A stretch of DNA of 57,280 nt from Escherichia phage KS_W4. Below the pieces are notes generated by a model, which had not been told where the DNA came from, did not search any database, and worked only from the letters and a program-made list of their open reading frames with translations. This document shows, piece after piece, positions 9,664 to 32,232 of this stretch. Both the position numbers and the translations under genes were made by a program. Position 1 is the stretch's first letter; the number at the start of each line of letters is the position of its first letter. The stretch is taken from sequence record PP627281.1; one strand, written 5' to 3'.

Positions 9664-10071
9664 ATGACCGACACCAAAAAAGCCAAAGTTGCAGTAGCTA
9701 AAAGCTTCCGTGATTTTAAAACTGTGAGCCGGGCAAATGATCCGGCTAACACTAAGCCTATGAATGTGGTTATTCCTGGTGTAGGCGACACTGGCGAAAA
9801 ACTCTACATTCGTAGCCGCTACTGCACAGAGTACCGTGACGCTGAACTGAAAGCGCAACGTCAACTGTTGGCACTTATGCAGGGTAAAGACGGTGAAGTA
9901 ACAGATGCTATGAAGGAAGACATCCTTACCCGTTCACTGTGTAACCTTGTAGCAGGTTGGACTTTTGACGAGCCACCGACTGTTGACAACGTGTTTGAGT
10001 TCTTAACGGAGAACCCAACTGTCCGAGAAGACCTTAACGTGTTTGCCGCTAAAGATAGTAATTTTTTCTAA
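9664..10071 (+). CDS. tail assembly chaperone (G-like)
   Basis: 135-aa ORF between major tail and tape measure genes; ends ...KDSNFF with slippery TTTTTTC at 10062-10068. Confidence 0.6.
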   Translation: MTDTKKAKVAVAKSFRDFKTVSRANDPANTKPMNVVIPGVGDTGEKLYIRSRYCTEYRDAELKAQRQLLALMQGKDGEVTDAMKEDILTRSLCNLVAGWTFDEPPTVDNVFEFLTENPTVREDLNVFAAKDSNFF

Positions 10072-10469
10072 AAGCGCGCAGACAGTTAATTGATAAGAAG
10101 ATCCTCCAATGGGAACTAAATAGTAAAGTCCCCGGCGGGGGATCTTCTTTATTATCGCAACTGCAAAAGGTTGAGGAACAGTCTGGTAAGACGCCACCTA
10201 AGCTTAAAGAATATCGGGAAAAGGAAATACCGCTTTGCTTCGAATATCTATCTACTTTATTTGATGATATCTACACTGGAGGAGATTTTAGTTATACAGA
10301 ATTGCACAGCTATCAAGTGACAATGGGCTTACATCTTCAACCGTACGAATGCGAAATACTGCGGCAGCTATGGCTTGAAAAGCGCGTGTCAGAAGCTGAA
10401 CAAAATGCTAAACTCATGGAAAGTCAAATGCAAAATCAAAATAAAGGTAGAAGAAAAAGGAGAAGATAA
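9664..10469 (+). CDS. tail assembly chaperone -1 frameshift fusion product (GT-like), predicted
   Basis: The -1 frame is open from 10062 to a stop at 10467-10469 that overlaps the tape-measure ATG (TAATG); U UUU UUC heptamer at the chaperone 3' end; 10-bp inverted repeat AAGAAGATCC/GGATCTTCTT at 10095-10149 downstream. Confidence 0.5.
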
Positions 10470-14757: not shown

Positions 14758-15166
14758 GTTGCCAGGCTGGCAGACACGTTTATTAACCACAGTAAAGGAG
14801 TTGTCATCGACTCCTTTTTCTTGGGGTGAAAATGATTGCTGTACCTTTGCTGCTAAATGTGTTGATGCTCAATACGGTACAAATATCTACGAACAAGTCG
14901 CTGGAAAATATAGTACAGAGCTTGGAAGTAAAAAGTTCACTATTGAAAGAGTTGGAACCGCTTACCTTCCATTGTTATTGGATACTTACCTCAGCGAACG
15001 CGTTGACAAGAACTATGCGCAAAGAGGCGATGTGGTTACATTTGAGGGAGCATTGGGCTTAACTGCTGGCATATTATGGACTGGATATGTATGGGCTATG
15101 GGTCCGAACGGTGTGGAAACATTCCCGCTTAATAAGATCAAAATTACGGATATTTGGAGGGTCTAA
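14732..15166 (+). CDS. tail assembly protein (gpK-like, cysteine peptidase-type motif)
   Basis: GGGGGAG RBS before ATG at 14732; contains GENDCCTFAAKC motif; sits before the tip protein gene. Confidence 0.45.
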   Translation: MRQGSPMSKLPGWQTRLLTTVKELSSTPFSWGENDCCTFAAKCVDAQYGTNIYEQVAGKYSTELGSKKFTIERVGTAYLPLLLDTYLSERVDKNYAQRGDVVTFEGALGLTAGILWTGYVWAMGPNGVETFPLNKIKITDIWRV

Positions 15167-18100
15167 TGCCACCAGCAATAATTGGAGCAGCGATAGCTTT
15201 AGGTGCGTCGGCTGCTGCTGCGGCTAGTATTATTTCGGCTACTACCGCTCTCGTTATCGGTATTGCTGCAACCGCGGCAGGTGCTCTTTTGACTAAGACA
15301 CCAAATATGAACTTTGATGCTTACAAGGGGCAGCAAGAGCGTAAACAGGTTCTGCGTGCGGCTACAGCGTCACGTTCTGTTGTATATGGCACGACCGTAG
15401 CGTCCGGACTATTAGCATTTGCGGAGGAAGAAGCTGGAGATCAAGATGAAGGTGAATGGATGCATCTTGTTGTTGTTCTTGCTAGTCATAAATTGGAAGG
15501 TATTGAAACGATTTGGTTGGGTGATGACGGAATTGATTGGTTTGGTGAAAACGCTACTTGGGAGTTTCATAACGACCGTCAGACTGTTGACCCATTCATG
15601 TTAAGACATTGTCCTTCCTGGAAGGAGGATATGATTGGCAAGGGTATTGCATGGCTACGTTTAAGCTTAAAGTTTGATGCTGAAAAATTCCCATCTGGTT
15701 TGCCAAACGTCAAGGTGTTGAAAAAGGGACGTAGAGTCTATGACCCACGTTCCGGTCAAACTGTCTTTAGCGATAACGCTGCTCTTGTTATTCTTGATTA
15801 TTTCCGCACGTATTTAAAGCGCAAGGACGAGAATATTAACTGGGACCAATTCAAGGAAGCTGCTAACATCTGCGATGAGTTTGTTACTAACGCAGATAAC
15901 ACTACGGAAAGACGCTACCGCATTAACGGTGAGTTTGAAGTGGATGAAGCACCTGCCAAAATCCTTGATGCTATGCTTGAAGCTTGCGGTGGGGAACTAA
16001 CCTATATTGGCGGCAAGCATGGTCTGTTAGTTGGCGCTTATTATGGTCCTGCTACCATGACTTTGGACGAAAGCTGCATTGCTGGGGATATTAAAATTAT
16101 CCCTGAAACATCTTATAAAGAGCGCACCAATACCATTACAGGTACATTCGTTGACCCGAAGCAAACATACGCTGAAGCAGATTTTCCTCCAGTTGTGGTT
16201 AAGGAATGGGTGGAAAAAGATGGCGGCGAAATAACGCAGGACATGGATTTCCGCTTTGTTACAAGTGAATATCAAGCTCAACGTCTTGCTAATATTATTT
16301 TACGTCGTAAGCGTGTTGGTCGAACAATTGAAGTGCCGTGTAACATGAAGGGGTATAAATTCCGCCCGGGCATGTATGTCAACGTGACAATTTCAAATAT
16401 TGGAATGAAAAATGTTGAGATGCGCGTTACTAAATGGTCATTCGATCCTAAAGGTGGAATTAATCTTGTCCTTCGTCAAGACTTCCTGGAAATGTGGGAC
16501 GATGCTATTGGTAAACCAATGGAGCGTCCGGATCTGGTAGACCTTCCGTCTGGTGCTATTGCTCAACCGCAAAACCTTCAGTATCAGGTATTGCAGATCA
16601 GCGATGTTGTGCAAGGTGTTTTAACATGGAGCAATATTGGACAGGTAGCGTATAACCGCGTAGCCGTGCGACAGGGAGGTACAACGGTTTGGACTGCACA
16701 AGTCCCTGGCCAAAACGTTCGCGTTACTGGGTTGCTGCGTGGCGCGTATACAGCGCATGTTCAAGCGGTAGCTTATAGCGGGACAATATCACCGGAAGCG
16801 TATCTTGAATTTAATATTCAAGCGCCGCCTCCGCCAACGTCTATTGAAGTGCAACAGGGTTACTTTGCTATAAGTCTAATCCCTAAATCCGCAGATATTG
16901 CAAACGTTAGCACGCAGTATGATTTTTGGACCTCTGGTGAAACAAGATTGTCTTCCGTGTCTACGGATATTGTGGAACGCGAAGCAACTCGTAAAGGTAT
17001 GGGTACAACATGGACTTCAGAAGGTTTGAAGAATGACCACACTTATTACTGGTATGTTCGCACTATCAACGCTTTTGGATCGTCTGCATTTGTAGAGGTT
17101 GCTGCATTGTGCTTCACAACAGCTACAGACTTAATGCCACAGATTGATTCTGAGTTCAAGAAGACGGAGACTTATAAAGAGCTTACTGCTGAAATTACAG
17201 GTGTTAAAGACGGTGTTACCCAACTCAGCCAAACTGTAGTAGATACAGAAAAGCGTTTAAGCCAAAGTGTTAGCAACATTCAGCAGAGCGTTATTACTTT
17301 GGACGGTGTTGTTCAGGATCAAGGTGTTACTATCAATGAACAAGGACAACTTATTGATGCACAGGGCCGATTGATTGATACGCAAGGTAAAACTATTCAG
17401 CAAGTTAGCGCGACTGTACAGGAGACAAGTAAAGCAGTCGTAGATCTGGAAGGTAATGTTAACGCGCAATGGGGCGCTAAGGTACAGGTTGACAGTAAAG
17501 GGCAAAAATACGTCGCTGGTATCCAGTTAGGTATGGAAGGGTCCGGTGGAGCTGTCCAGTCTTACTTCATGGTGAGCGCTAACAACTTTGCTATCTATAA
17601 CCCGACAAACAGCGTAGCAGAACTGGCATTTGCTGTTAAGAACGGTCAAGTGTTCATGAAGGCTGCGTTTATTGAAAATGGTACTATCGACAGCGCCAAA
17701 ATTTCAAACCAGATTCAGTCAACTAACTACGCTAACAATAGCGCGGGTTGGATGATTAACAAGAACGGTAGCGCTCAGTTTAACAACGTAACGATAAGAG
17801 GTACTGTATACGCTAGCAACGGGTCTTTTACTGGTACAGTGAACGCAACAAGCGGTAAATTCAAGGGTACTGTGGAAGCCACCAGTTTTGTGGGTGATGT
17901 TGCGAATATGTGTGTCATTGCTGAGTCTGCAATACCAAACACACAAACTACAAGTTCAAGAACCTGGACAAAAACTTTCAAAGACTCATCCGGTTCAACA
18001 TTATCTAAAGACTTTGTGTTGTTATTAAGTTATAGTTTAACTGCATATACATCAAAGCAGTCAAGTCGTATAATTGTGACTGCTAACATAGGTGGAACAT

Positions 18101-18288
18101 CAATAACAAGGAGGATTGAGCGAGCTGCCAATGGACCTGCCATGGATGTAACCGTACCTTTAGCAGTGAAAGGAAAGACAGCGTCGAGCGTGACAATAAC
18201 CGTTAAGGAGGAGTATACGAACGTCTATGGGAGCTACTTGCGCCCGTCTGTAATATTAATGACTCGCGGAACTGGTAGTTGGTCGTAA
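15166..18288 (+). CDS. tail tip / host specificity protein (J-like)
   Basis: about 1040 aa; GGAGGG RBS and TAATG coupling; hydrophobic Ala-rich N-terminus, large beta-rich body; followed by terminator. Confidence 0.65.
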   Translation: MPPAIIGAAIALGASAAAAASIISATTALVIGIAATAAGALLTKTPNMNFDAYKGQQERKQVLRAATASRSVVYGTTVASGLLAFAEEEAGDQDEGEWMHLVVVLASHKLEGIETIWLGDDGIDWFGENATWEFHNDRQTVDPFMLRHCPSWKEDMIGKGIAWLRLSLKFDAEKFPSGLPNVKVLKKGRRVYDPRSGQTVFSDNAALVILDYFRTYLKRKDENINWDQFKEAANICDEFVTNADNTTERRYRINGEFEVDEAPAKILDAMLEACGGELTYIGGKHGLLVGAYYGPATMTLDESCIAGDIKIIPETSYKERTNTITGTFVDPKQTYAEADFPPVVVKEWVEKDGGEITQDMDFRFVTSEYQAQRLANIILRRKRVGRTIEVPCNMKGYKFRPGMYVNVTISNIGMKNVEMRVTKWSFDPKGGINLVLRQDFLEMWDDAIGKPMERPDLVDLPSGAIAQPQNLQYQVLQISDVVQGVLTWSNIGQVAYNRVAVRQGGTTVWTAQVPGQNVRVTGLLRGAYTAHVQAVAYSGTISPEAYLEFNIQAPPPPTSIEVQQGYFAISLIPKSADIANVSTQYDFWTSGETRLSSVSTDIVEREATRKGMGTTWTSEGLKNDHTYYWYVRTINAFGSSAFVEVAALCFTTATDLMPQIDSEFKKTETYKELTAEITGVKDGVTQLSQTVVDTEKRLSQSVSNIQQSVITLDGVVQDQGVTINEQGQLIDAQGRLIDTQGKTIQQVSATVQETSKAVVDLEGNVNAQWGAKVQVDSKGQKYVAGIQLGMEGSGGAVQSYFMVSANNFAIYNPTNSVAELAFAVKNGQVFMKAAFIENGTIDSAKISNQIQSTNYANNSAGWMINKNGSAQFNNVTIRGTVYASNGSFTGTVNATSGKFKGTVEATSFVGDVANMCVIAESAIPNTQTTSSRTWTKTFKDSSGSTLSKDFVLLLSYSLTAYTSKQSSRIIVTANIGGTSITRRIERAANGPAMDVTVPLAVKGKTASSVTITVKEEYTNVYGSYLRPSVILMTRGTGSWS

Positions 18289-18295
18289 TAAATAA

Positions 18296-18324
18296 TTAAC
18301 CCCTCAAACGAGGGGTTAATTTTC
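18296..18324. terminator. bidirectional rho-independent terminator
   Basis: TTAACCCCTC-AAAC-GAGGGGTTAA followed by TTTTC; lies between the + tip gene and the - lipoprotein gene. Confidence 0.7.
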
Positions 18325-18556
18325 AATAATCAATTACACAGTTTGAAGGTGAACCAATTCTTCGGTATTCATGATCAATCTCATGGCACCATTGTCCAGT
18401 CATTGGAAGCTTTTCGGTATCATAAATTAAAGAACCGTTACCATCACGGTCTAACGGTTTTGGAATAACGCCGGAATTAGGTTTACCCGTATTTAGACCG
18501 TTACCACATGCAGTGAGGGATAAAGTTAATGCCAGCATAATTAAAGCGCGTTTCAT
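18323..18556 (-). CDS. Cor-like lipoprotein (putative superinfection exclusion)
   Basis: 77-aa ORF with signal peptide and lipobox LTAC-G; opposite strand inside the tail module, as in T1/phi80-type cor genes. Confidence 0.5.
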   Translation of the reverse strand: MKRALIMLALTLSLTACGNGLNTGKPNSGVIPKPLDRDGNGSLIYDTEKLPMTGQWCHEIDHEYRRIGSPSNCVIDY

Positions 18557-18638
18557 TGGGACTCCTTTGTGTTGTTGTCAAGGTTCAATTCTAATATACT
18601 TGTTGTGTTGAGTAAGTCAAATAAATGTGGGAGATATT

Positions 18639-19799
18639 ATGGCAACTCGTTTACGTGGTACTTTAGTTGATGGTTTAAATAAACCAATTGTCAACGCTAC
18701 AGTTGCGCTTTTAGCAAAAGGGAATAGCTTATTGGTATTGTCCGGCAGTGAAGCTATCTTTAAAACAAGCGCAACCGGAACATATGATATTACAGTCCAA
18801 ACAGGCTATTACAAGGTTATTATCGGTCCGCAAGGTAGCGAGCCTTATAAAGCTGGTGAAATTGCTATTTACGCGGACAGTAAAGAAGGTACGCTGAATA
18901 ACTATTTAACTTCCTGGGCACCGGAAGAGTTAACTCCGGAAGTTATTGCACAGGTTAAAGATTTAGTTTCACAAGCTGAGACAGCTAAGAATGCTTCAGC
19001 TTCGTCAGCTACTAAATCCGAGCAGGAACGAGTTAAAGCAGAAGCTGCTGCTAAAAAGGCGGAAGATACTGCTAACGGTATGAAAGATTCTATTGGTCTA
19101 GCTAACAGACCTCGTCATATTGAAGATATCACTGGAAATCCTGCAAGCTTCCTTGGGTTTATACGCATTCTAAGAGCCACTACCGTAGGATATCCGTCTA
19201 TTGCCAGCGCAGATAACACTTTAGCTGGTTTTATTTCCCCAATGGATGGAACGCCAGGCTATATTGGTTTATTTGTTGGCGATGTGACTGGAACAGTTTA
19301 TAGTTACCGATGGGTACAAACGAAGGGTGCTTCATGGTGGAAAAGTGCTCTTTACAGTCAAATTGATAGATATATTCAGCTGGCTAGCGGTGAGACTCAG
19401 ATGAAGAGCGGTAATGCTAATTACCATCTATACATTAACGATCTGCAAGGATGGGGAGCCTATGATAATATTAATAAGCGGTTTATACCCCTGCCAGTTG
19501 CCAAAGGCGGTACAGGGGCGCTCACAGACGCGGATGCTCGTACAAACTTACGCCTCGGTGCTAATGATACACCGCAGTTCAGAAACCTTAATCTTGTTAA
19601 CGTAGCAGACACAGCTCAAGCCCCTTCCGGTATTGTGAGCGGTTATTTAAATAATAGTTCTGGAGTTCAAAGATGTCGCTACCGCATATATTCTGAGATA
19701 CGCGGAGATAACAAAGCGTGGTTAACCTTACACCTTCAATCAGACACAGCAACAAATAAATATGCTGGTTTAAGTGTGGATGGTAAATTTCATTGGTAA
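18639..19799 (+). CDS. tail fibre protein
   Basis: RBS GGGAGAT before ATG at 18639 (ORF track starts at GTG 18627); contains WGAYD...IPLP...GGTGA...TNL motif also found in the next ORF. Confidence 0.55.
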   Translation: MATRLRGTLVDGLNKPIVNATVALLAKGNSLLVLSGSEAIFKTSATGTYDITVQTGYYKVIIGPQGSEPYKAGEIAIYADSKEGTLNNYLTSWAPEELTPEVIAQVKDLVSQAETAKNASASSATKSEQERVKAEAAAKKAEDTANGMKDSIGLANRPRHIEDITGNPASFLGFIRILRATTVGYPSIASADNTLAGFISPMDGTPGYIGLFVGDVTGTVYSYRWVQTKGASWWKSALYSQIDRYIQLASGETQMKSGNANYHLYINDLQGWGAYDNINKRFIPLPVAKGGTGALTDADARTNLRLGANDTPQFRNLNLVNVADTAQAPSGIVSGYLNNSSGVQRCRYRIYSEIRGDNKAWLTLHLQSDTATNKYAGLSVDGKFHW

Positions 19800-21333
19800 C
19801 GCTATAAGTCTATCAGATGTACAAACGTCCAAAGTAAACCTACAGGTAAATAGATTCCTGCAAGCTACAGGCGAAACTGATGTGGTTAACCATGCAGGGA
19901 CAGCTCAAATTTTTATCACTGATAATAAAAATTGGGGGGCTTACGATAAAGAATTAAAGCGTCATATCCCTTTGCCCATTTCACAGGGTGGGACTGGAGC
20001 GGTTACTATTGGTGACGCTAAGACAAATTTACAAATACCTTCTGTTGGTGCTGGAGACTGGTTGGAGATTGCTGCTCCTTCTGGCGTTGAAGCGGGGAAA
20101 TATTATCCAATTGTAATCAAAGCTCAATATGCCTCTTTATATGCTTCTGGTTTCTTTATAGATATACAAACTAGAAGCTCTAGAGGTTCAGATCCTATGA
20201 ACTGTTGTACATTTAACGGATTCATACGAACAGGTGGTTGGTCGGATAGGAAAGACGCTGGCTATGGATACTATAACCGATATGGTTCTAATGAGCTTGC
20301 TTTAAAATGCATATTGGTATCCGCTAAGAATGCTGAAGACAATATAGCTGTATATGTAGAAGGTAGAGCATTCCCAGTGAAAATGCGCATACCTCAATTT
20401 TGCACAGCTACGGCAGTCGCTTCAGCTTCTACATATGGTGAAGTGACATTTGCTTGGGGTACATCCAATCCTGCTACAGATTCAGTTGGGGTAAATACCC
20501 TATTTGATTTCTCTTTAAATAGAGTTGGTTTTTATCAAGCATCTACTGAAGGAAACTATTATATTGGTAACGGCCAACGTATAGTTCTTTCTAATGGGAT
20601 GTCCGTAGGGGATGAATTAACCTTAACCACACCTAAGATTACTTTCAGTGGCACAGTAGCAGCGGGTAACGGTTTTATTGCGGATGGGACGTCTGTATCC
20701 AATGCTACTTTTTATAGTCGTTATCGTGTCGGTGATACTGTTTACGGTGCGGAGTTCCGGGCTAGTGAGAATGCAGCCCAAGTTATTGTCGGAGACCCAG
20801 CAGGAACTAATCATCAATTCTTCAACTTTAATCTTAATGGTACATTTAGCGCGCCAAACGGTTTATTAAGCTCCACTGGTGTTGATTGGACGTTACGTCG
20901 GGACGCTACCGATTCAACTACCATGTTCCCACACCAGAAGGTTAGCTGGCTTAATGCTGGCTGTGAACCTATGGGCGATGGAAGGGTTCATTACTGTTGG
21001 ATTATGGGAGTGATACCGCCTACGCCTGGCACTATCGAACGACCCGTGAATGTGATGTATGTCGGCTTCCACCAGTTTAAAATCACGATCGCTCCAAACT
21101 CCATTAGTCAGTCTGATCTTGATCGTATGCACGTTTACGTCAGCGATGGTACAGACTTTGCAGGTGATTTTATTAATAAGTTTCTTGGTATGCAACCTGA
21201 GCAACCTGTAGAAGCTCGCGAGCACATTAGCCCGTGGCCGCCAATGATTGATCAGGAAGTGTTACAGCCAAAGACCGCTCAAACGGCCCCTCAGAAACCG
21301 GAGCAGAAGGTGAAACCAAATGACGAAGAATGA
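19780..21333 (+). CDS. tail fibre protein 2 / receptor-binding candidate
   Basis: about 517 aa; starts (GTG 19774 or ATG 19780) in a different frame overlapping the upstream fibre stop; N-terminus repeats the WGAYD...GGTGA...TNL motif. Confidence 0.5.
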   Translation: MVNFIGNAISLSDVQTSKVNLQVNRFLQATGETDVVNHAGTAQIFITDNKNWGAYDKELKRHIPLPISQGGTGAVTIGDAKTNLQIPSVGAGDWLEIAAPSGVEAGKYYPIVIKAQYASLYASGFFIDIQTRSSRGSDPMNCCTFNGFIRTGGWSDRKDAGYGYYNRYGSNELALKCILVSAKNAEDNIAVYVEGRAFPVKMRIPQFCTATAVASASTYGEVTFAWGTSNPATDSVGVNTLFDFSLNRVGFYQASTEGNYYIGNGQRIVLSNGMSVGDELTLTTPKITFSGTVAAGNGFIADGTSVSNATFYSRYRVGDTVYGAEFRASENAAQVIVGDPAGTNHQFFNFNLNGTFSAPNGLLSSTGVDWTLRRDATDSTTMFPHQKVSWLNAGCEPMGDGRVHYCWIMGVIPPTPGTIERPVNVMYVGFHQFKITIAPNSISQSDLDRMHVYVSDGTDFAGDFINKFLGMQPEQPVEAREHISPWPPMIDQEVLQPKTAQTAPQKPEQKVKPNDEE

Positions 21334-27799: not shown

Positions 27800-28408
27800 T
27801 TATTTACAAGCTTCAAGGAACTCCCGGCGCCATTCTTTACCAATATTGCTACCATGCTCCAGTTCTGTAGCGCCCCGGAACGCTTTGGTAATAGTAGAGC
27901 TGCCACATACCTGCTTAACCCCGCGCGATTCCATGCACATATGCTTAGCATCGATATAAACACATACAGCTTTCGGATTTAGGTGCTCCTGGATAGCGTC
28001 TGCAATCTGGTTAGTTAGACGCTCTTGCACTTGCAAGCGACGGCTAAAAGCATCAACCACGCGAGACAGTTTACTGAGCCCCACAATGCGACCGTTAGGA
28101 ACATACCCCACGACAGCGCGACCGATAATAGGGGCCATATGGTGTTCACAATGACTGTAAACAGGAATATCACGAACAATAACCATTTCATTAGTATCTT
28201 CCGCCCCGTCCTCAAAGGTCTTAAACAGACCAGCAATATCTACATCGTAACCGCCGAACCATGTAGCATAAGCTTTTGCTACACGCTCCGGAGTTTCCTC
28301 CAGCCCTGGGCGCAGAACCGCGCTAACTTCAATTTGAGATAGTAAAGTACGCACAGCGTTAGCAATACGGAATTGAACACCTTCACTATTAATACTATAT
28401 TTAGACAT
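27800..28408 (-). CDS. folE: GTP cyclohydrolase I
   Basis: about 202 aa from ATG 28408 (AAGGAAA RBS); conserved CEHHMAPI segment typical of FolE. Confidence 0.75.
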   Translation of the reverse strand: MSKYSINSEGVQFRIANAVRTLLSQIEVSAVLRPGLEETPERVAKAYATWFGGYDVDIAGLFKTFEDGAEDTNEMVIVRDIPVYSHCEHHMAPIIGRAVVGYVPNGRIVGLSKLSRVVDAFSRRLQVQERLTNQIADAIQEHLNPKAVCVYIDAKHMCMESRGVKQVCGSSTITKAFRGATELEHGSNIGKEWRREFLEACK

Positions 28409-28442
28409 GGTTTGCAGTTTCCTTGTTGTTAATGTGGTCATA

Positions 28443-28979
28443 TTACAGGCTATAGTTTACGTGACATTTCGAAGTTTCTTCGATGGTGCATTCTACAAGT
28501 TGAACACCATGTTCGTCAAGCAGTTGCGGCCCAATTACTTCAACCATGTACGCAGCCAGATTTTCAGCAGTAGGATTGAACGGTAAAGACACCAGTGAAT
28601 CGTTAAAAGCTTTAAGATCTTCATCCCCTTCACCGAAAGTAGGCCAACCGCGTTCAGATTGAGTATCCGTTTCAATACAACATTGCAGTCCGTTGATCAA
28701 CATATCCTTTTCCCAATGTAGAAACTTATGATCCCAGTTATCTTCTAGCCACTGGCAGAGCGTAGTTTTAACCACACTAAAGTCAATCACGCGCCCAACG
28801 CTGTCCAGACCGTCCTCAATCAGCTTTCCTCGTGTCACTACTTTTCCGCATCCATGCTTCGGAGCAACCTTAAAGTGAAACTTATAGTTGTGACCGTGGA
28901 GGTGGCGACATTTGCTTTCGTGACCTACAACACGATGTCCGGCGCAAATTTCATGTGAACGAATTACTGTATAGCTCAT
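28443..28979 (-). CDS. queD: 6-carboxy-5,6,7,8-tetrahydropterin synthase
   Basis: 178 aa; CxxxHGH-type signature (CAGHRVVGHESKCRHLHGHNY). Confidence 0.7.
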   Translation of the reverse strand: MSYTVIRSHEICAGHRVVGHESKCRHLHGHNYKFHFKVAPKHGCGKVVTRGKLIEDGLDSVGRVIDFSVVKTTLCQWLEDNWDHKFLHWEKDMLINGLQCCIETDTQSERGWPTFGEGDEDLKAFNDSLVSLPFNPTAENLAAYMVEVIGPQLLDEHGVQLVECTIEETSKCHVNYSL

Positions 28980-29566
28980 TTTAATACCTCTTTAGACTGT
29001 TCAATTTCTAATGCACGCTGTGCGGATGCAATAATATCTTTCAAGTCTTCTACCAGACTTTTATGACCGCGTTCGCCCGGCTGCAACGCCTTTTTAATTA
29101 AATGTTGTAAAGCTGGGTTAGTTGTTTTCCAAGCTTCCAAGACATCATACACGTCCACGATGCATTTTACAACATTGCCGTTTTGATCTTTACCATAAAT
29201 AATTTTCTGATATTTATTCATGGGAATTTTAGATGGTTCATATTTGGTAAAAACTGCACCATTAAATGTATTACTTATGCTTATTCCAGAAGAAGGTTGA
29301 TGGTACACTCCGGAGCGAGTGTTTTCGCTGGCTTGTTTGACGTAATCATCCGCAACGATATATCGCCAGGCTATAATATCTTGAACTTTATAAGGGCTAT
29401 TTTCATCCATAGCTGAACGCCCTTCTATAGCCCAATCCCATCCATGTAATAGATTCTTAACGTGTGTGCCGTTGCGCAAACGAACTTCAAACTTTTCATT
29501 GCGAAGAAAGATTGGCATTCCTTTCCCATCGTGCTGGTGCCAAATTTTATTAAGATTATCTTTCAT
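28976..29566 (-). CDS. hypothetical protein within the 7-deazaguanine cluster
   Basis: about 196 aa from ATG 29566 (track starts at TTG 29605); no motif recognised. Confidence 0.45.
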   Translation of the reverse strand: MKDNLNKIWHQHDGKGMPIFLRNEKFEVRLRNGTHVKNLLHGWDWAIEGRSAMDENSPYKVQDIIAWRYIVADDYVKQASENTRSGVYHQPSSGISISNTFNGAVFTKYEPSKIPMNKYQKIIYGKDQNGNVVKCIVDVYDVLEAWKTTNPALQHLIKKALQPGERGHKSLVEDLKDIIASAQRALEIEQSKEVLK

Positions 29567-29567
29567 T

Positions 29568-30047
29568 TTACGCTCTCGCTGTACGTGATTGAACTTCGTA
29601 AACAATCCAAAGGATAGCGGATGCTGTGAACTTACTTAAGCTCATTGCTACCATTGATCCCGGATTAACAATACCTATAATACTTAAGAACACAATGGAG
29701 TCAATCGGTACAGCTACCAAAGAGCTAATAAATACACGTTGATGAAACGGCTTCTTAGTAATCGTGTATACCGCATAGTCCGCAAACTCGCTAAGAGCAA
29801 AGGATGCAACGGATGCAACTACAACAGCAGGATCCCCAAATACCCAGCTAAGGATGCAACCAACAATCATTGCAGGGATAACGCCTTTACCAGCGTTACG
29901 CTGTGCGTAGTCACGCAACACAAAGATAATACCTACAAAGAAAGCCATCATGGGGACTACGCCAAGAGGCGTGTTAAGCATCGGAAGGTAGGAAAAGCCA
30001 AGGTTTACGAATGTAATTGCAGCCAGATAAGCAACGATAAATTTCAT
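29568..30047 (-). CDS. YhhQ/DUF165-like membrane protein (putative queuosine-precursor transporter)
   Basis: about 159 aa from ATG 30047 (GGAGAA RBS); six hydrophobic segments; pattern resembles YhhQ-family transporters. Confidence 0.45.
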   Translation of the reverse strand: MKFIVAYLAAITFVNLGFSYLPMLNTPLGVVPMMAFFVGIIFVLRDYAQRNAGKGVIPAMIVGCILSWVFGDPAVVVASVASFALSEFADYAVYTITKKPFHQRVFISSLVAVPIDSIVFLSIIGIVNPGSMVAMSLSKFTASAILWIVYEVQSRTARA

Positions 30048-30167
30048 ACTTTTGTTCTCCAGTTTTAACAGCGTTATTCGCTGGTTGTTGGGTTTAAAAG
30101 CTTTAGTAGTATAGTTGGGTCCCCGCACCCTAAACAATGCGCTAGCGGTGCGGTTTTCGCGGTAAGA

Positions 30168-30875
30168 TCAAGCTTTGCTAATAAATTCGCTGTACCCTTT
30201 AGCACGCAGTTTGCACGCAGGACATTCACCGCAACCATATCCCCAGTCATGCAGAGTGCGACGGACGCCGTTATAACACGTATGGGACTGCTCAATTACT
30301 GTGGTTAAGAAACCAACCTTATCCGCCAGCTCAAACGTTTCAGCTTTATTTAAACGCATAAGCGGAGTAACAAAATGGATATCTGTTTCATATCCAACGT
30401 TTAATGTAGCTTCAAGCAGGTCTACAAACTGCTGGCGGCAATCCGGATAACCGCTATAGTCTGTTTCACAAACGCCTGTAACCACATATCGGGCTCCAAC
30501 CTTCTGCGCGTAGGCGTGAGCGGTAGTCAGAAAAAGCGCATTACGGTTTGGCACAAAGCTTGCCGGAAGGTTGTTGTGCTGTTCGTGATGTTCGTTAACA
30601 TCACCTTCGTTCCCGATTAAAGCACTATTGCCAATCTGTTTTAAAGCAGGTAATTCAAAGACAACAAATGGGACATCGTGCTCTTTACAAATTTGATTAG
30701 CACAAGCCAGCTCAATGTTATGACGTTGACCGTATGCAAAACCAATAGCGTAGACCTTATCATAGTTATTAAGGGCAAGACCCAAACAGGTCACGCTGTC
30801 CTGGCCGCCAGACAGGACGACAACGGCGGAGTTATGATTTTTTACAGGGAATACCAGTTTATCTAATTTATTCAT
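30168..30875 (-). CDS. queC: 7-cyano-7-deazaguanine synthase
   Basis: about 235 aa from ATG 30875; PP-loop SGGQDS motif; C-terminal Cys cluster (CGECPAC). Confidence 0.8.
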   Translation of the reverse strand: MNKLDKLVFPVKNHNSAVVVLSGGQDSVTCLGLALNNYDKVYAIGFAYGQRHNIELACANQICKEHDVPFVVFELPALKQIGNSALIGNEGDVNEHHEQHNNLPASFVPNRNALFLTTAHAYAQKVGARYVVTGVCETDYSGYPDCRQQFVDLLEATLNVGYETDIHFVTPLMRLNKAETFELADKVGFLTTVIEQSHTCYNGVRRTLHDWGYGCGECPACKLRAKGYSEFISKA

Positions 30876-30876
30876 T

Positions 30877-31065
30877 TTAGAACCCTTTAAGGCTAATATT
30901 AAGATTAACGACCACTTGTTCAACTACATCATCAGATGTCATCTGACGCTTATGAATTTCAAGCTCCGAATGTATGTTCTTGGATGCAGCACGACAGATA
31001 GCGTCATTCAGCTCGTCTTGTAAACGTTGCATCTTCTGCATAAGAATTACAGTTTCTTCATTCAT
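30877..31065 (-). CDS. hypothetical small protein
   Basis: 62-aa ORF; appears paralogous to the next upstream 70-aa ORF. Confidence 0.35.
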   Translation of the reverse strand: MNEETVILMQKMQRLQDELNDAICRAASKNIHSELEIHKRQMTSDDVVEQVVVNLNISLKGF

Positions 31066-31270
31066 CTTCTACACCTTTAATATCACAAGGGTTGATTGTT
31101 ACGTTTGACATCACAATCGGATGATTGCGTGCTCCGATTGTACTAACGTGGTTAATATCTAATTCAACATGCACACCCTGCATAGTAGCGTGAGCAATTG
31201 CAGAATTAAGTTTTTCTACCAGCTCAGTGATCATTTCCTGATGCTGTTTCGCTTCTTCCAAAGTGATCAT
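31058..31270 (-). CDS. hypothetical small protein
   Basis: 70-aa ORF in the que cluster. Confidence 0.35.
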   Translation of the reverse strand: MITLEEAKQHQEMITELVEKLNSAIAHATMQGVHVELDINHVSTIGARNHPIVMSNVTINPCDIKGVEDE

Positions 31271-31525
31271 TTAAACCTCCGTTAATGTTTGAGTCCAGTC
31301 TAAGCCTTCAAGGTCTACATCAGCTATTTCATCGTACTCGTAAGCTCCCGGATCTGCTGGCAGCCATCTATCAAATCGATGGCTGAGTTCTGGAGGAATT
31401 GCTTCATACCCCCAAACCTTCCCATCCTTGTCGGCTGCCAGATAATCAACTCGACTTGGAACGGTTAAAGTGACACCACAAAAATTAACATCTTTAGTAT
31501 GCACAACCTGACTTAATACACGCAT
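31271..31525 (-). CDS. hypothetical protein (VDLEGxDW family)
   Basis: 84 aa; C-terminal ADVDLEGLDWTQTLTEV shared with the ORF at 52069-52374. Confidence 0.45.
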   Translation of the reverse strand: MRVLSQVVHTKDVNFCGVTLTVPSRVDYLAADKDGKVWGYEAIPPELSHRFDRWLPADPGAYEYDEIADVDLEGLDWTQTLTEV

Positions 31526-32232
31526 TATTCCACCCCGATATATTTGTGAACCTGAAGCTGCAACGTGTACCCGTGTTTCATACAGCTTTTGACAACCGCT
31601 TGGATGTTACTGTGGTTAAGATCTTCATCCTGCTCGTCCATTGGCTGTAAATATATCTTACCCTTGAACCCCTTCGGAGGTCTAGCGATAAATGGCGTAG
31701 CTTGATGATCTAATGCCTGAAGCGGTAAACCGTCTTCCACGTTTACACAGCACGCTTTAAGCACATATTTAAATGCGTTTGCTCGGTACAGCACAGTAGG
31801 ATGAATTTTTGAAGTCTTAGGACTGCATACAATGACAGGCAGCTGGGAAAAGTTCTTAGGTAAAGGCATAGACCCATTCGTTTCAATTTGTACAAGATAC
31901 CCGCGCGATAAGAGTTGTTCGACAAACGGGTTAATTTGCTGACGGAACGGTTCACCCCCAGTAATAACCACAAGTGAGGTGCTATTGCCTGATTCCAGCT
32001 TACGGCTTTCGATTAAACGCATGATATCAACAATGTGATAAAGAGAACGACCTACAGTATAGTCAGTATCACAGCCCGGACATTGCAGGTTACACCCAGC
32101 AAGTCGCACAAATACAGCAGGTTGGCCGCAGAATGGCCCTTCACCCTGAATGGTAGAGAATACCGAATGCACGTCTAAATACATATCGTTTTCTTTAGAA
32201 CGAGACTCGGGAGCTTGTTGATTAATATTCAT
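31525..32232 (-). CDS. queE: 7-carboxy-7-deazaguanine synthase (radical SAM)
   Basis: 235 aa; CNLQCPGC (Cx3Cx2C-type) cluster; GGEP motif; RBS AGAGGA. Confidence 0.75.
   Translation of the reverse strand: MNINQQAPESRSKENDMYLDVHSVFSTIQGEGPFCGQPAVFVRLAGCNLQCPGCDTDYTVGRSLYHIVDIMRLIESRKLESGNSTSLVVITGGEPFRQQINPFVEQLLSRGYLVQIETNGSMPLPKNFSQLPVIVCSPKTSKIHPTVLYRANAFKYVLKACCVNVEDGLPLQALDHQATPFIARPPKGFKGKIYLQPMDEQDEDLNHSNIQAVVKSCMKHGYTLQLQVHKYIGVE

What the first reader, a model, noticed from the sequence alone, without database searches (positions are those of the whole stretch)
18639..21333. Two consecutive tail-fibre ORFs share a conserved motif and overlap in different frames
The fibre ORF ending at 19799 carries ...WGAYDNINKRFIPLPVAKGGTGALTDADARTNL... 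near its C-terminus. The next ORF, starting at 19774/19780 in another frame, carries ...WGAYDKELKRHIPLPISQGGTGAVTIGDAKTNL... near its N-terminus. This could be a duplicated fibre module used for host-range switching, or a single fibre gene split by a frameshift (programmed or sequencing error).
Basis: seen in the sequence. Interest (0 to 1): 0.4.

Follow-up and report, generated by a model that had tools for sequence, protein, structure and literature searches.

The report
Broken side tail-fibre gene remnant
The two overlapping "fibre ORFs" are the pieces of one lateral tail-fibre gene of a Seuratvirus-type coliphage, broken by a 17-base deletion and also cut short by a 2.2-kb deletion; this kind of fibre loss is already known from phage lambda PaPa and phage CSP1C.

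Summary
ORF A (18639-19799) and ORF B (19774/19780-21333) overlap in different frames, and both carry a WGAYD...IPL...GGTG...TNL segment (40% identity over 95 aa, E 7e-17).

It is one gene, not two. The close relatives CSP1, SeppeHuegi and OddieOddie have a single fibre ORF of 1026-1028 aa that contains both motif copies. Compared with them, and with T5-like fibres, the window lacks 17 nt (AATTTTCAGATTAACGG) at 19784/19785, between imperfect direct repeats. Putting the 17 nt back gives one 903-codon ORF.

There is a second lesion. A 2237-bp deletion at a 13-nt repeat (GGTGTTGATTGGA, 20878-20890) removes:
- the last 271 fibre residues, including the Peptidase_S74 chaperone domain;
- two downstream genes.

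It fuses the fibre remnant in frame to a downstream gene of unknown function (phrog_8329).

All 28 neighbouring genes are intact. Other, independent deletions of this locus occur in Seurat, CSP1C, GottfriedDienst, SHIN8 and a metagenome contig.

The motif is an ancient internal shaft repeat, present in 1 to 3 copies in natural fibres. It is not a recent duplication.

This is ordinary fibre decay, analogous to the lambda PaPa stf frameshift. Interest is low.

The parts
18639..19799 (+). ORF A (386 aa from the ATG): the N-terminal fragment of the lateral tail-fibre gene. It ends at a TAA created by the frameshift.
   Evidence: PF08400 phage_tail_N, aa 5-134 of the 390-aa form from GTG 18627 = aa 1-130 from the ATG; phrog_6578 profile positions 205-486; equals aa 1-384 of the 1028-aa OddieOddie gp20.
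18639..18914 (+). Tail-attachment (collar) domain, aa 1-92. It is homologous to the N-terminal domain of lambda Stf.
   Evidence: E 8e-14 to PDB 9E7M chain Ta. PMC12617516: residues 1-94 of gpStf form the collar on the tail tip.
19359..19643 (+). Copy 1 of the repeated shaft segment (ORF A aa 241-335). The core motif WGAYD...GGTG...TNL lies at 19452-19550.
19784..19787 (+). Lesion 1: junction of a 17-nt deletion (AATTTTCAGATTAACGG in CSP1). Placement is ambiguous by 2 nt because of a shared AA. The flanking imperfect direct repeats in the parent are GGTAATTTTCA and GGAAATTTCA. The deletion shifts the frame by +1.
19774..21333 (+). ORF B (519 aa from the GTG, 517 aa from ATG 19780): middle part of the fibre (aa 1-372) fused to the C-terminal part of a downstream gene.
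   Evidence: phrog_6578 positions 490-827, then phrog_8329 positions 17-164; equals aa 388-756 of OddieOddie gp20 plus all of gp23.
19843..20097 (+). Copy 2 of the repeated shaft segment (ORF B aa 24-108). The core motif lies at 19933-20031.
20878..20890 (+). Lesion 2: junction of a 2237-bp deletion, at the 13-nt repeat GGTGTTGATTGGA, which encodes G-V-D-W on both sides.
   Evidence: the alignments to the CSP1/SeppeHuegi fibre and to the downstream gene overlap exactly here.
20891..21333 (+). Tail of ORF B, derived from residues 30-176 of the homologue of the 176-aa CSP1 protein of unknown function (phrog_8329). That protein is CSP1_007 in KY982929 and, by its length and position, CSP1_023 in the paper's numbering.

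Best explanation
Region 18639-21333 is the decayed remnant of one lateral (side) tail-fibre gene of a Seuratvirus-like siphophage. The intact gene, as in CSP1, SeppeHuegi and OddieOddie, encodes about 1026 aa with this layout:
- an N-terminal collar-binding domain like that of lambda Stf;
- a coiled-coil region;
- two copies of a roughly 165-aa shaft segment carrying the WGAYD...GGTG...TNL motif;
- a distal receptor-binding region;
- a C-terminal Peptidase_S74 intramolecular chaperone.

The window carries two deletions, each between short direct repeats, which is the signature of replication slippage or microhomology-mediated recombination.
1. A 17-nt deletion at 19784/19785 shifts the frame. 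Translation from the true start therefore stops at 19799 after 386 aa.
2. A 2237-bp deletion at 20878-20890 removes the distal 271 residues with the chaperone domain, plus two downstream genes. It fuses the rest in frame to a 176-aa protein of unknown function.

What is shown: the two lesions, their junctions, and the intactness of all neighbouring genes.

What is inferred:
- The phage makes no functional side fibres. At most it makes a 386-aa stub that could still dock on the tail.
- It infects through its J-like tip protein alone.
- The loss arose, or was tolerated, because side fibres are dispensable on rough laboratory hosts, as shown experimentally for CSP1C, lambda PaPa and T5.

The shared motif is an internal repeat of the fibre shaft, not a sign of two genes.
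For: - Single ORFs of 1026-1028 aa sit at the same position in CSP1, SeppeHuegi and OddieOddie. Both motif copies lie inside those ORFs.
- The 17-nt gap appears only in the window. It is absent from every Seuratvirus hit that aligns across the junction and from the T5-like fibres.
- Re-inserting the 17 nt gives one 903-aa ORF.
- In the phrog_6578 profile, ORF A covers positions 205-486 and ORF B covers 490-827, which is contiguous.
- The second junction maps to a 13-nt repeat.
- The fibre C-terminus, the S74 domain and the 235-aa and 122-aa genes are absent from the whole window.
- All 28 flanking genes are full length at 96-100% aa identity to OddieOddie, so the damage is confined to this locus.
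- Independent deletions of the same locus occur in Seurat (602-aa fusion, 15-nt overlap), CSP1C, GottfriedDienst, SHIN8 and metagenome contig L010.
- Experimental precedent from PMC13577005: the CSP1 1026-aa protein is the fibre seen by TEM. A spontaneous 4672-bp deletion between 14-bp direct repeats removes it. Adsorption and burst size on MG1655 are unchanged.
- The N-terminus is homologous to the lambda Stf collar domain.
Against: - No reads are available, so an assembly or consensus artefact at the 17-nt site cannot be excluded.
- The exact deletion alleles were not found in any other public assembly, so there is no independent confirmation.
- Loss of fibres on the virion and the phenotype are inferred from relatives, not measured for this phage.
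- ORF B has an in-frame ATG at 19780, just upstream of the ORF A stop, so some coupled translation of ORF B cannot be excluded.
Confidence: 0.85

Rival explanations
1. Sequencing or assembly artefact: the phage actually has the 17 nt, and possibly the 2.2 kb, and the split is an error in the consensus.
For: No reads are available. The allele is unique among public sequences. Short direct repeats can occasionally cause local misassembly.
Against: - A 17-nt loss outside any homopolymer is not a typical platform error.
- The other 28 genes checked are all intact.
- A second, independent lesion lies in the same gene. This fits relaxed selection on a gene that is already dead.
- Real deletions of this locus between short repeats are documented experimentally and occur in several deposited genomes.
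Confidence: 0.1
2. Programmed +1 ribosomal frameshift: ribosomes slip from TTT (19788-19790) to TTC (19789-19791) and join ORF A to ORF B, giving a fibre of about 900 aa.
For: ORF B is in the +1 frame, and tRNA-Phe could re-pair on TTT_C inside the 26-nt overlap.
Against: - The arrangement is not conserved. Every relative has a continuous ORF with 17 more bases.
- No stop codon or rare codon follows the slip site to stall the ribosome; the next codon is CAT.
- The product would still lack the distal domain and the S74 chaperone.
- The genome does have a canonical -1 site elsewhere, T_TTT_TTC at 10062-10068 in the tape-measure chaperone, which shows what a real one looks like here.
Confidence: 0.02
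3. Two genuine fibre genes that form a branched or two-component fibre, like LtfA/LtfB of the T5-like phage DT57C, with the shared motif as a duplicated module.
For: Two-protein branched lateral fibres exist in T5-like phages (PMC4728585). ORF B has possible start codons at 19774 and 19780.
Against: - The ORF boundary falls in sequence that is continuous coding sequence in all relatives.
- ORF B lacks both an attachment domain and the S74 chaperone that LtfA and LtfB each carry.
- The C-terminus of ORF B is a piece of an unrelated downstream gene.
Confidence: 0.03

Closest known systems
Lambda PaPa stf frameshift (Ur-lambda Stf split into orf-401 and orf-314; Hendrix & Duda 1992, cited in PMC8594841 and PMC12617516)
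   Same: A side tail-fibre gene with a homologous N-terminal collar domain is split into two overlapping ORFs by a frameshifting deletion in a laboratory-type phage. The fibres are dispensable because the J tip protein mediates infection.
   Different: From my own recollection of Hendrix & Duda, the lambda lesion is a single-base deletion; the papers read here say only 'frameshift mutation'. Here the lesion is 17 nt. There is also a second, 2.2-kb deletion that removes the C-terminal third and two neighbouring genes. The distal part of the fibre is of the S74-chaperone type, not the T4 gp37/Tfa type.
CSP1C, a spontaneous clear-plaque deletion mutant of Seuratvirus CSP1 (PMC13577005)
   Same: - It is the same gene family; the window fibre DNA is 94% identical to CSP1.
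- The deletion lies between short direct repeats.
- The downstream end falls in the same 176-aa gene.
- The same two intervening genes are lost.
   Different: CSP1C lost 4672 bp and keeps only 56 fibre codons. The window keeps about 755 codons but in two frames. The junction repeats differ (14-nt GTGCAACCGGAACA versus 13-nt GGTGTTGATTGGA). The phenotype of the window phage has not been tested.
Phage Seurat gp21 (602-aa 'tail fiber protein', KM236243)
   Same: It is an independent in-frame fusion of a truncated fibre to the C-terminus of the same downstream gene.
   Different: The breakpoints differ: fibre aa ~545 joined to ...FAGDF..., with a 15-nt overlap. Seurat has no frameshift, so it has a single ORF.
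T5-type L-shaped tail fibre (pb1) and the HildyBeyeler lateral tail fibre
   Same: The fibre segment at window 19782-20880 is 86% identical at the DNA level to part of the HildyBeyeler LTF. That fibre carries the same motif three times and an S74 chaperone. T5 fibres are dispensable on rough strains.
   Different: The N-terminal attachment region and the virion context are different. The T5-like genes are intact.

Membership tests
Seuratvirus lateral tail fibre (phrog_6578; lambda-Stf-like N-terminus plus S74 chaperone C-terminus) | N-terminal phage_tail_N / Stf collar domain | tested here: met
   PF08400, E 1.5e-22. PDB 9E7M Stf N-terminal domain, E 8e-14.
Seuratvirus lateral tail fibre (phrog_6578; lambda-Stf-like N-terminus plus S74 chaperone C-terminus) | Conserved position: downstream of the J-like tip protein and the antisense lipoprotein gene | tested here: met
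   Same gene order as in CSP1, SeppeHuegi, Seurat and OddieOddie.
Seuratvirus lateral tail fibre (phrog_6578; lambda-Stf-like N-terminus plus S74 chaperone C-terminus) | One uninterrupted ORF of about 1026 aa | tested here: not met
   The gene is split at 19784/19785 by a 17-nt deletion. It is a remnant of a member, not a functional member.
Seuratvirus lateral tail fibre (phrog_6578; lambda-Stf-like N-terminus plus S74 chaperone C-terminus) | C-terminal Peptidase_S74 intramolecular chaperone | tested here: not met
   PF13884 is present in the CSP1 fibre at aa 907-963. It is absent from ORF B and from the whole window (tblastn).
Programmed ribosomal frameshift site | The two-frame arrangement is conserved in relatives | tested here: not met
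   All relatives have a continuous ORF with 17 extra bases.
Programmed ribosomal frameshift site | Slippery sequence matching the required shift, with a stall or stimulatory element | tested here: not met
   A +1 shift is needed. Only TTT_C is available and it is followed by a common CAT codon. There is no X_XXY_YYZ heptamer in the ORF A frame. Downstream RNA structure was not examined.
Branched two-protein lateral fibre (LtfA/LtfB type) | Each protein carries its own C-terminal S74 chaperone, and the second protein has a docking N-terminus | tested here: not met
   Neither ORF has an S74 domain. ORF B begins in mid-shaft sequence. The definition comes from PMC4728585.
Decayed side-fibre allele of laboratory-type phages (lambda PaPa stf, CSP1C) | Frameshift or deletion relative to intact orthologues, with short direct repeats at the junctions | tested here: met
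Decayed side-fibre allele of laboratory-type phages (lambda PaPa stf, CSP1C) | Virions lack side fibres yet remain infectious on rough hosts | not testable with these tools
   Shown for CSP1C and stated for lambda. It needs EM and plating for this phage.

The most novel reading that the evidence does not exclude
The fusion of the fibre to the phrog_8329 gene may not be junk. Independent in-frame fusions of a truncated fibre to the same downstream gene occur in the window and in Seurat. They could encode a shortened side fibre with a new distal domain, made in the window phage by low-level +1 slippage at TTT_C or by separate expression of ORF B. A milder version is that loss of the fibre and the two genes behind it is positively selected, because together they cause lysis suppression in CSP1. 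That would make this locus a microhomology-driven hot spot of 'domestication'.
Probability: 0.05. Interest if true: 0.45.

Novelty: new member of a known kind. Interest (0 to 1): 0.15.

Why it matters
The main use is for annotation and for anyone working with this phage. The two ORFs should be annotated as one disrupted lateral tail-fibre gene, not as two fibre proteins.

By analogy with CSP1C, the phage is predicted to:
- lack side fibres;
- be restricted to hosts reachable through the J tip protein alone;
- form clear, fast-lysing plaques.

This matters for host-range prediction or therapeutic use, because an O-antigen-binding fibre would be missing.

With Seurat, CSP1C, GottfriedDienst, SHIN8 and contig L010, this adds one more case showing that this locus is repeatedly lost by deletion between short repeats.

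Tried and rejected
- I looked for the same alleles elsewhere and found none. The exact ORF A protein is not on record. The junction-1 and junction-2 strings are absent from IMG/VR, and the junction-1 string is absent from JGI metagenomes. There is therefore no independent confirmation, and no sign of a conserved arrangement.
- I considered a recent tandem duplication of a fibre module and rejected it. The two motif regions are only 54% identical in DNA, with no identical run longer than 6 nt (also 36). Both copies already exist inside intact single ORFs.
- I considered a programmed frameshift and rejected it: wrong direction, no conservation, no signal.
- I considered a branched LtfA/LtfB-type fibre and rejected it: no S74 domains, and the boundary falls inside conserved coding sequence.
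- I checked whether the missing C-terminus or the two missing genes had moved elsewhere in the 57-kb window. They had not.
- I did not run structure prediction, because the sequence comparisons already settled the question.

Full report
**Observation.** The ORF table shows ORF A at 18627/18639-19799 and ORF B at 19774/19780-21333 on the + strand. ORF B lies in the +1 frame relative to ORF A, and the two overlap over 19774-19799. Both quoted peptides are present, at ORF A aa 272-304 and ORF B aa 54-86. The similarity extends over 95 residues (40% identity, E 7e-17), so it is not chance. At the DNA level the copies are only 54% identical, with no identical run longer than 6 nt. This is an old repeat, not a recent duplication.

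**Context.** The window is essentially a whole genome of a Seuratvirus-like siphophage (Queuovirinae).
- Its first 25 kb align at 93-97% identity and 93-98% coverage to OddieOddie, SeppeHuegi, RCIP0359 and Seurat.
- It carries FolE, QueD, QueC and a radical-SAM gene, typical of the 7-deazaguanine pathway.
- Upstream of the finding lie a J-like tip protein (15154-18288; Phage_Tail_Tip, Ig_J domains) and an antisense 77-aa lipoprotein gene (18323-18556; phrog_12984). Relatives have the same order.

**One gene, not two.** At the same position CSP1, SeppeHuegi and OddieOddie carry a single ORF of 1026-1028 aa, annotated as lateral tail fibre.
- Its translation contains both motif copies, at aa 271 and 437.
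- The DNA alignment shows that the window lacks 17 nt (AATTTTCAGATTAACGG) between 19784 and 19785.
- The missing stretch, which encodes part of the sequence G-N-F-Q-I-N-G, is present in every Seuratvirus hit that aligns across the junction and in the T5-like fibres of HildyBeyeler, SP01 and the Kenya phages. The window state is therefore the derived one.
- In the parent the deleted stretch lies between the imperfect direct repeats GGTAATTTTCA and GGAAATTTCA. The window keeps a hybrid, GGTAAATTTCA.
- Re-inserting the 17 nt gives one open frame of 903 codons from 18639 to 21333.
- ORF A matches positions 205-486 of the tail-fibre profile phrog_6578 and ORF B matches positions 490-827, which is contiguous.

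**A second lesion.** Similarity to the CSP1/SeppeHuegi fibre stops at window 20890. Similarity to a gene 2.2 kb further downstream in those phages starts at 20878.
- The 13 shared bases are GGTGTTGATTGGA, which encode G-V-D-W on both sides.
- Relative to CSP1 and SeppeHuegi, 2237 bp are missing. These comprise fibre residues 756-1026, a 235-aa gene, a 122-aa gene, and the first 25 codons of a 176-aa gene (phrog_8329).
- The lost fibre part includes the Peptidase_S74 intramolecular chaperone (PF13884, aa 907-963 of the CSP1 fibre).
- None of the lost sequences occurs anywhere else in the window.
- ORF B is therefore a chimera: aa 1-372 are mid-fibre, and the rest is the tail of phrog_8329.

**Sequence quality.** All 19 genes upstream and 9 genes downstream are full length and 96-100% identical in protein to OddieOddie. 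Only gp20 (the fibre) is split, gp21 and gp22 are absent, and gp23 is fused. The damage is specific to the fibre locus, which argues against a generally poor assembly. Both junctions sit at short direct repeats, which is typical of replication slippage and not of sequencing error. Without reads, an artefact at the 17-nt site cannot be fully excluded.

**The same locus decays repeatedly.**
- Seurat's 602-aa "tail fiber protein" is another in-frame fusion of a truncated fibre to the same downstream gene, at different breakpoints with a 15-nt overlap.
- GottfriedDienst and SHIN8 keep only 193 and 202 N-terminal codons.
- A 58-kb metagenome contig has a 212-aa plus 600-aa split and a roughly 1.8-kb deletion with a 10-nt overlap.
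- CSP1C is a spontaneous clear-plaque mutant of CSP1 with a 4672-bp deletion between 14-bp direct repeats, running from the fibre gene into the same 176-aa gene.
- For CSP1 and CSP1C the paper reports four things. The 1026-aa protein forms the fibre seen by TEM. CSP1C lacks that fibre. Adsorption, latent period and burst size on MG1655 are unchanged. The fibre gene plus the two genes behind it are needed for lysis suppression (PMC13577005).
- The BASEL paper states that the lateral fibres of these small siphoviruses probably bind O-antigen. For T5-like phages it adds that this interaction is not essential on K-12 (PMC8594841).
- Instability of the T5-like ltf locus during passage on rough strains is also described (PMC4728585).

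**What the motif is.** It marks a repeated shaft segment of about 165 aa inside single-chain fibres.
- Natural fibres with an intact N-terminus and S74 domain exist with one copy. P0003 (863 aa) joins copy 1 and copy 2 within the repeat.
- Seuratvirus fibres have two copies, and the T5-like HildyBeyeler LTF has three.
- The segment after copy 2 (window 19782-20880) is 86-93% identical in DNA to T5-like fibres, so fibre modules are exchanged between genera near these repeats.
- This is the only sense in which the "module" idea holds. Nothing indicates a switching mechanism.

**Most likely consequence (inferred).** Translation from 18639 yields a 386-aa stub. It keeps the domain homologous to the lambda Stf collar domain (PDB 9E7M, E 8e-14) and a coiled-coil stretch, so it might still dock on the tail. 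ORF B lacks an attachment domain, the distal tip and the chaperone. Even a read-through product would be unlikely to fold into a functional trimeric fibre. The phage should infect through its J-like protein only and, like CSP1C, should give clear plaques.

**Rivals.**
- A programmed frameshift would have to be +1 (TTT to TTC at 19788-19791). It is not conserved and has no stall codon.
- The genome does contain a textbook -1 site, T_TTT_TTC at 10062-10068 at the end of the tape-measure chaperone ORF, followed by a 135-codon ORF without a start codon.
- A branched two-protein fibre is excluded by the missing S74 domains and by an ORF boundary that falls inside conserved coding sequence.

**Comparison and verdict.** The closest analogue is the lambda PaPa stf frameshift, which splits the Ur-lambda side-fibre gene into two ORFs. 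The closest relative with experimental data is CSP1C. This is a new allele of a known phenomenon in a known gene family. Interest is low. The value lies in correct annotation and in predicting the phenotype.

Noticed in passing
window 9664-10469 (+), slippery site 10062-10068: The tape-measure chaperone ORF (9664-10071) ends with T_TTT_TTC directly before its stop codon. A 135-codon ORF without a start codon (10062-10469) follows in the -1 frame, up to the tape-measure gene. This is a canonical G/GT-type programmed -1 frameshift, and the extension is not annotated in OddieOddie.
   Followed up: partly
window 27800-32232 (-): A cluster of 7-deazaguanine DNA-modification genes: GTP cyclohydrolase I (27800-28441), PTPS/QueD (28443-28979), QueC (30168-30923, 250 aa, with no extra amidotransferase domain detected) and a radical-SAM protein (31525-32232). 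This fits a Seuratvirus-type dPreQ0 modifier.
   Followed up: partly
window 18288-18323; locus L011 1766-2703: In the window the J-like gene is followed directly by the antisense lipoprotein gene. The related contig L011 has two extra genes (100 and 211 aa) between them, possibly a separate receptor-binding-protein locus. In the window phage, receptor specificity probably lies in the J C-terminus.
   Followed up: no
window 19782-20880; locus L008 3501-4598: The mid-fibre segment is 86% identical in DNA to the lateral tail fibre of the T5-like phage HildyBeyeler and 93% identical to Salmonella phage Kenya-K18. This indicates exchange of fibre modules between Queuovirinae and Markadamsvirinae.
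   Followed up: partly
locus L003 3240-5048 (phage Seurat gp21): The annotated 602-aa tail fibre of the genus type phage Seurat is itself a deletion product. A truncated fibre is fused in frame to the C-terminus of the downstream phrog_8329 gene. As a result, the profile phrog_4128 contains this chimeric end.
   Followed up: partly
locus L010 2908-5496 (ENA ERZ1755983 contig, 58,407 bp): Another independently decayed allele: a 212-aa N-terminal ORF overlaps a 600-aa ORF, and there is a roughly 1.8-kb deletion with a 10-nt overlap at the junction. The contig was seen in two samples.
   Followed up: partly
protein P0003 / locus L011 3001-5592: A natural 863-aa fibre with an intact N-terminus and S74 domain but only one motif copy. 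It looks like an in-frame recombinant between copy 1 and copy 2, so the roughly 165-aa shaft segment appears to be optional.
   Followed up: partly
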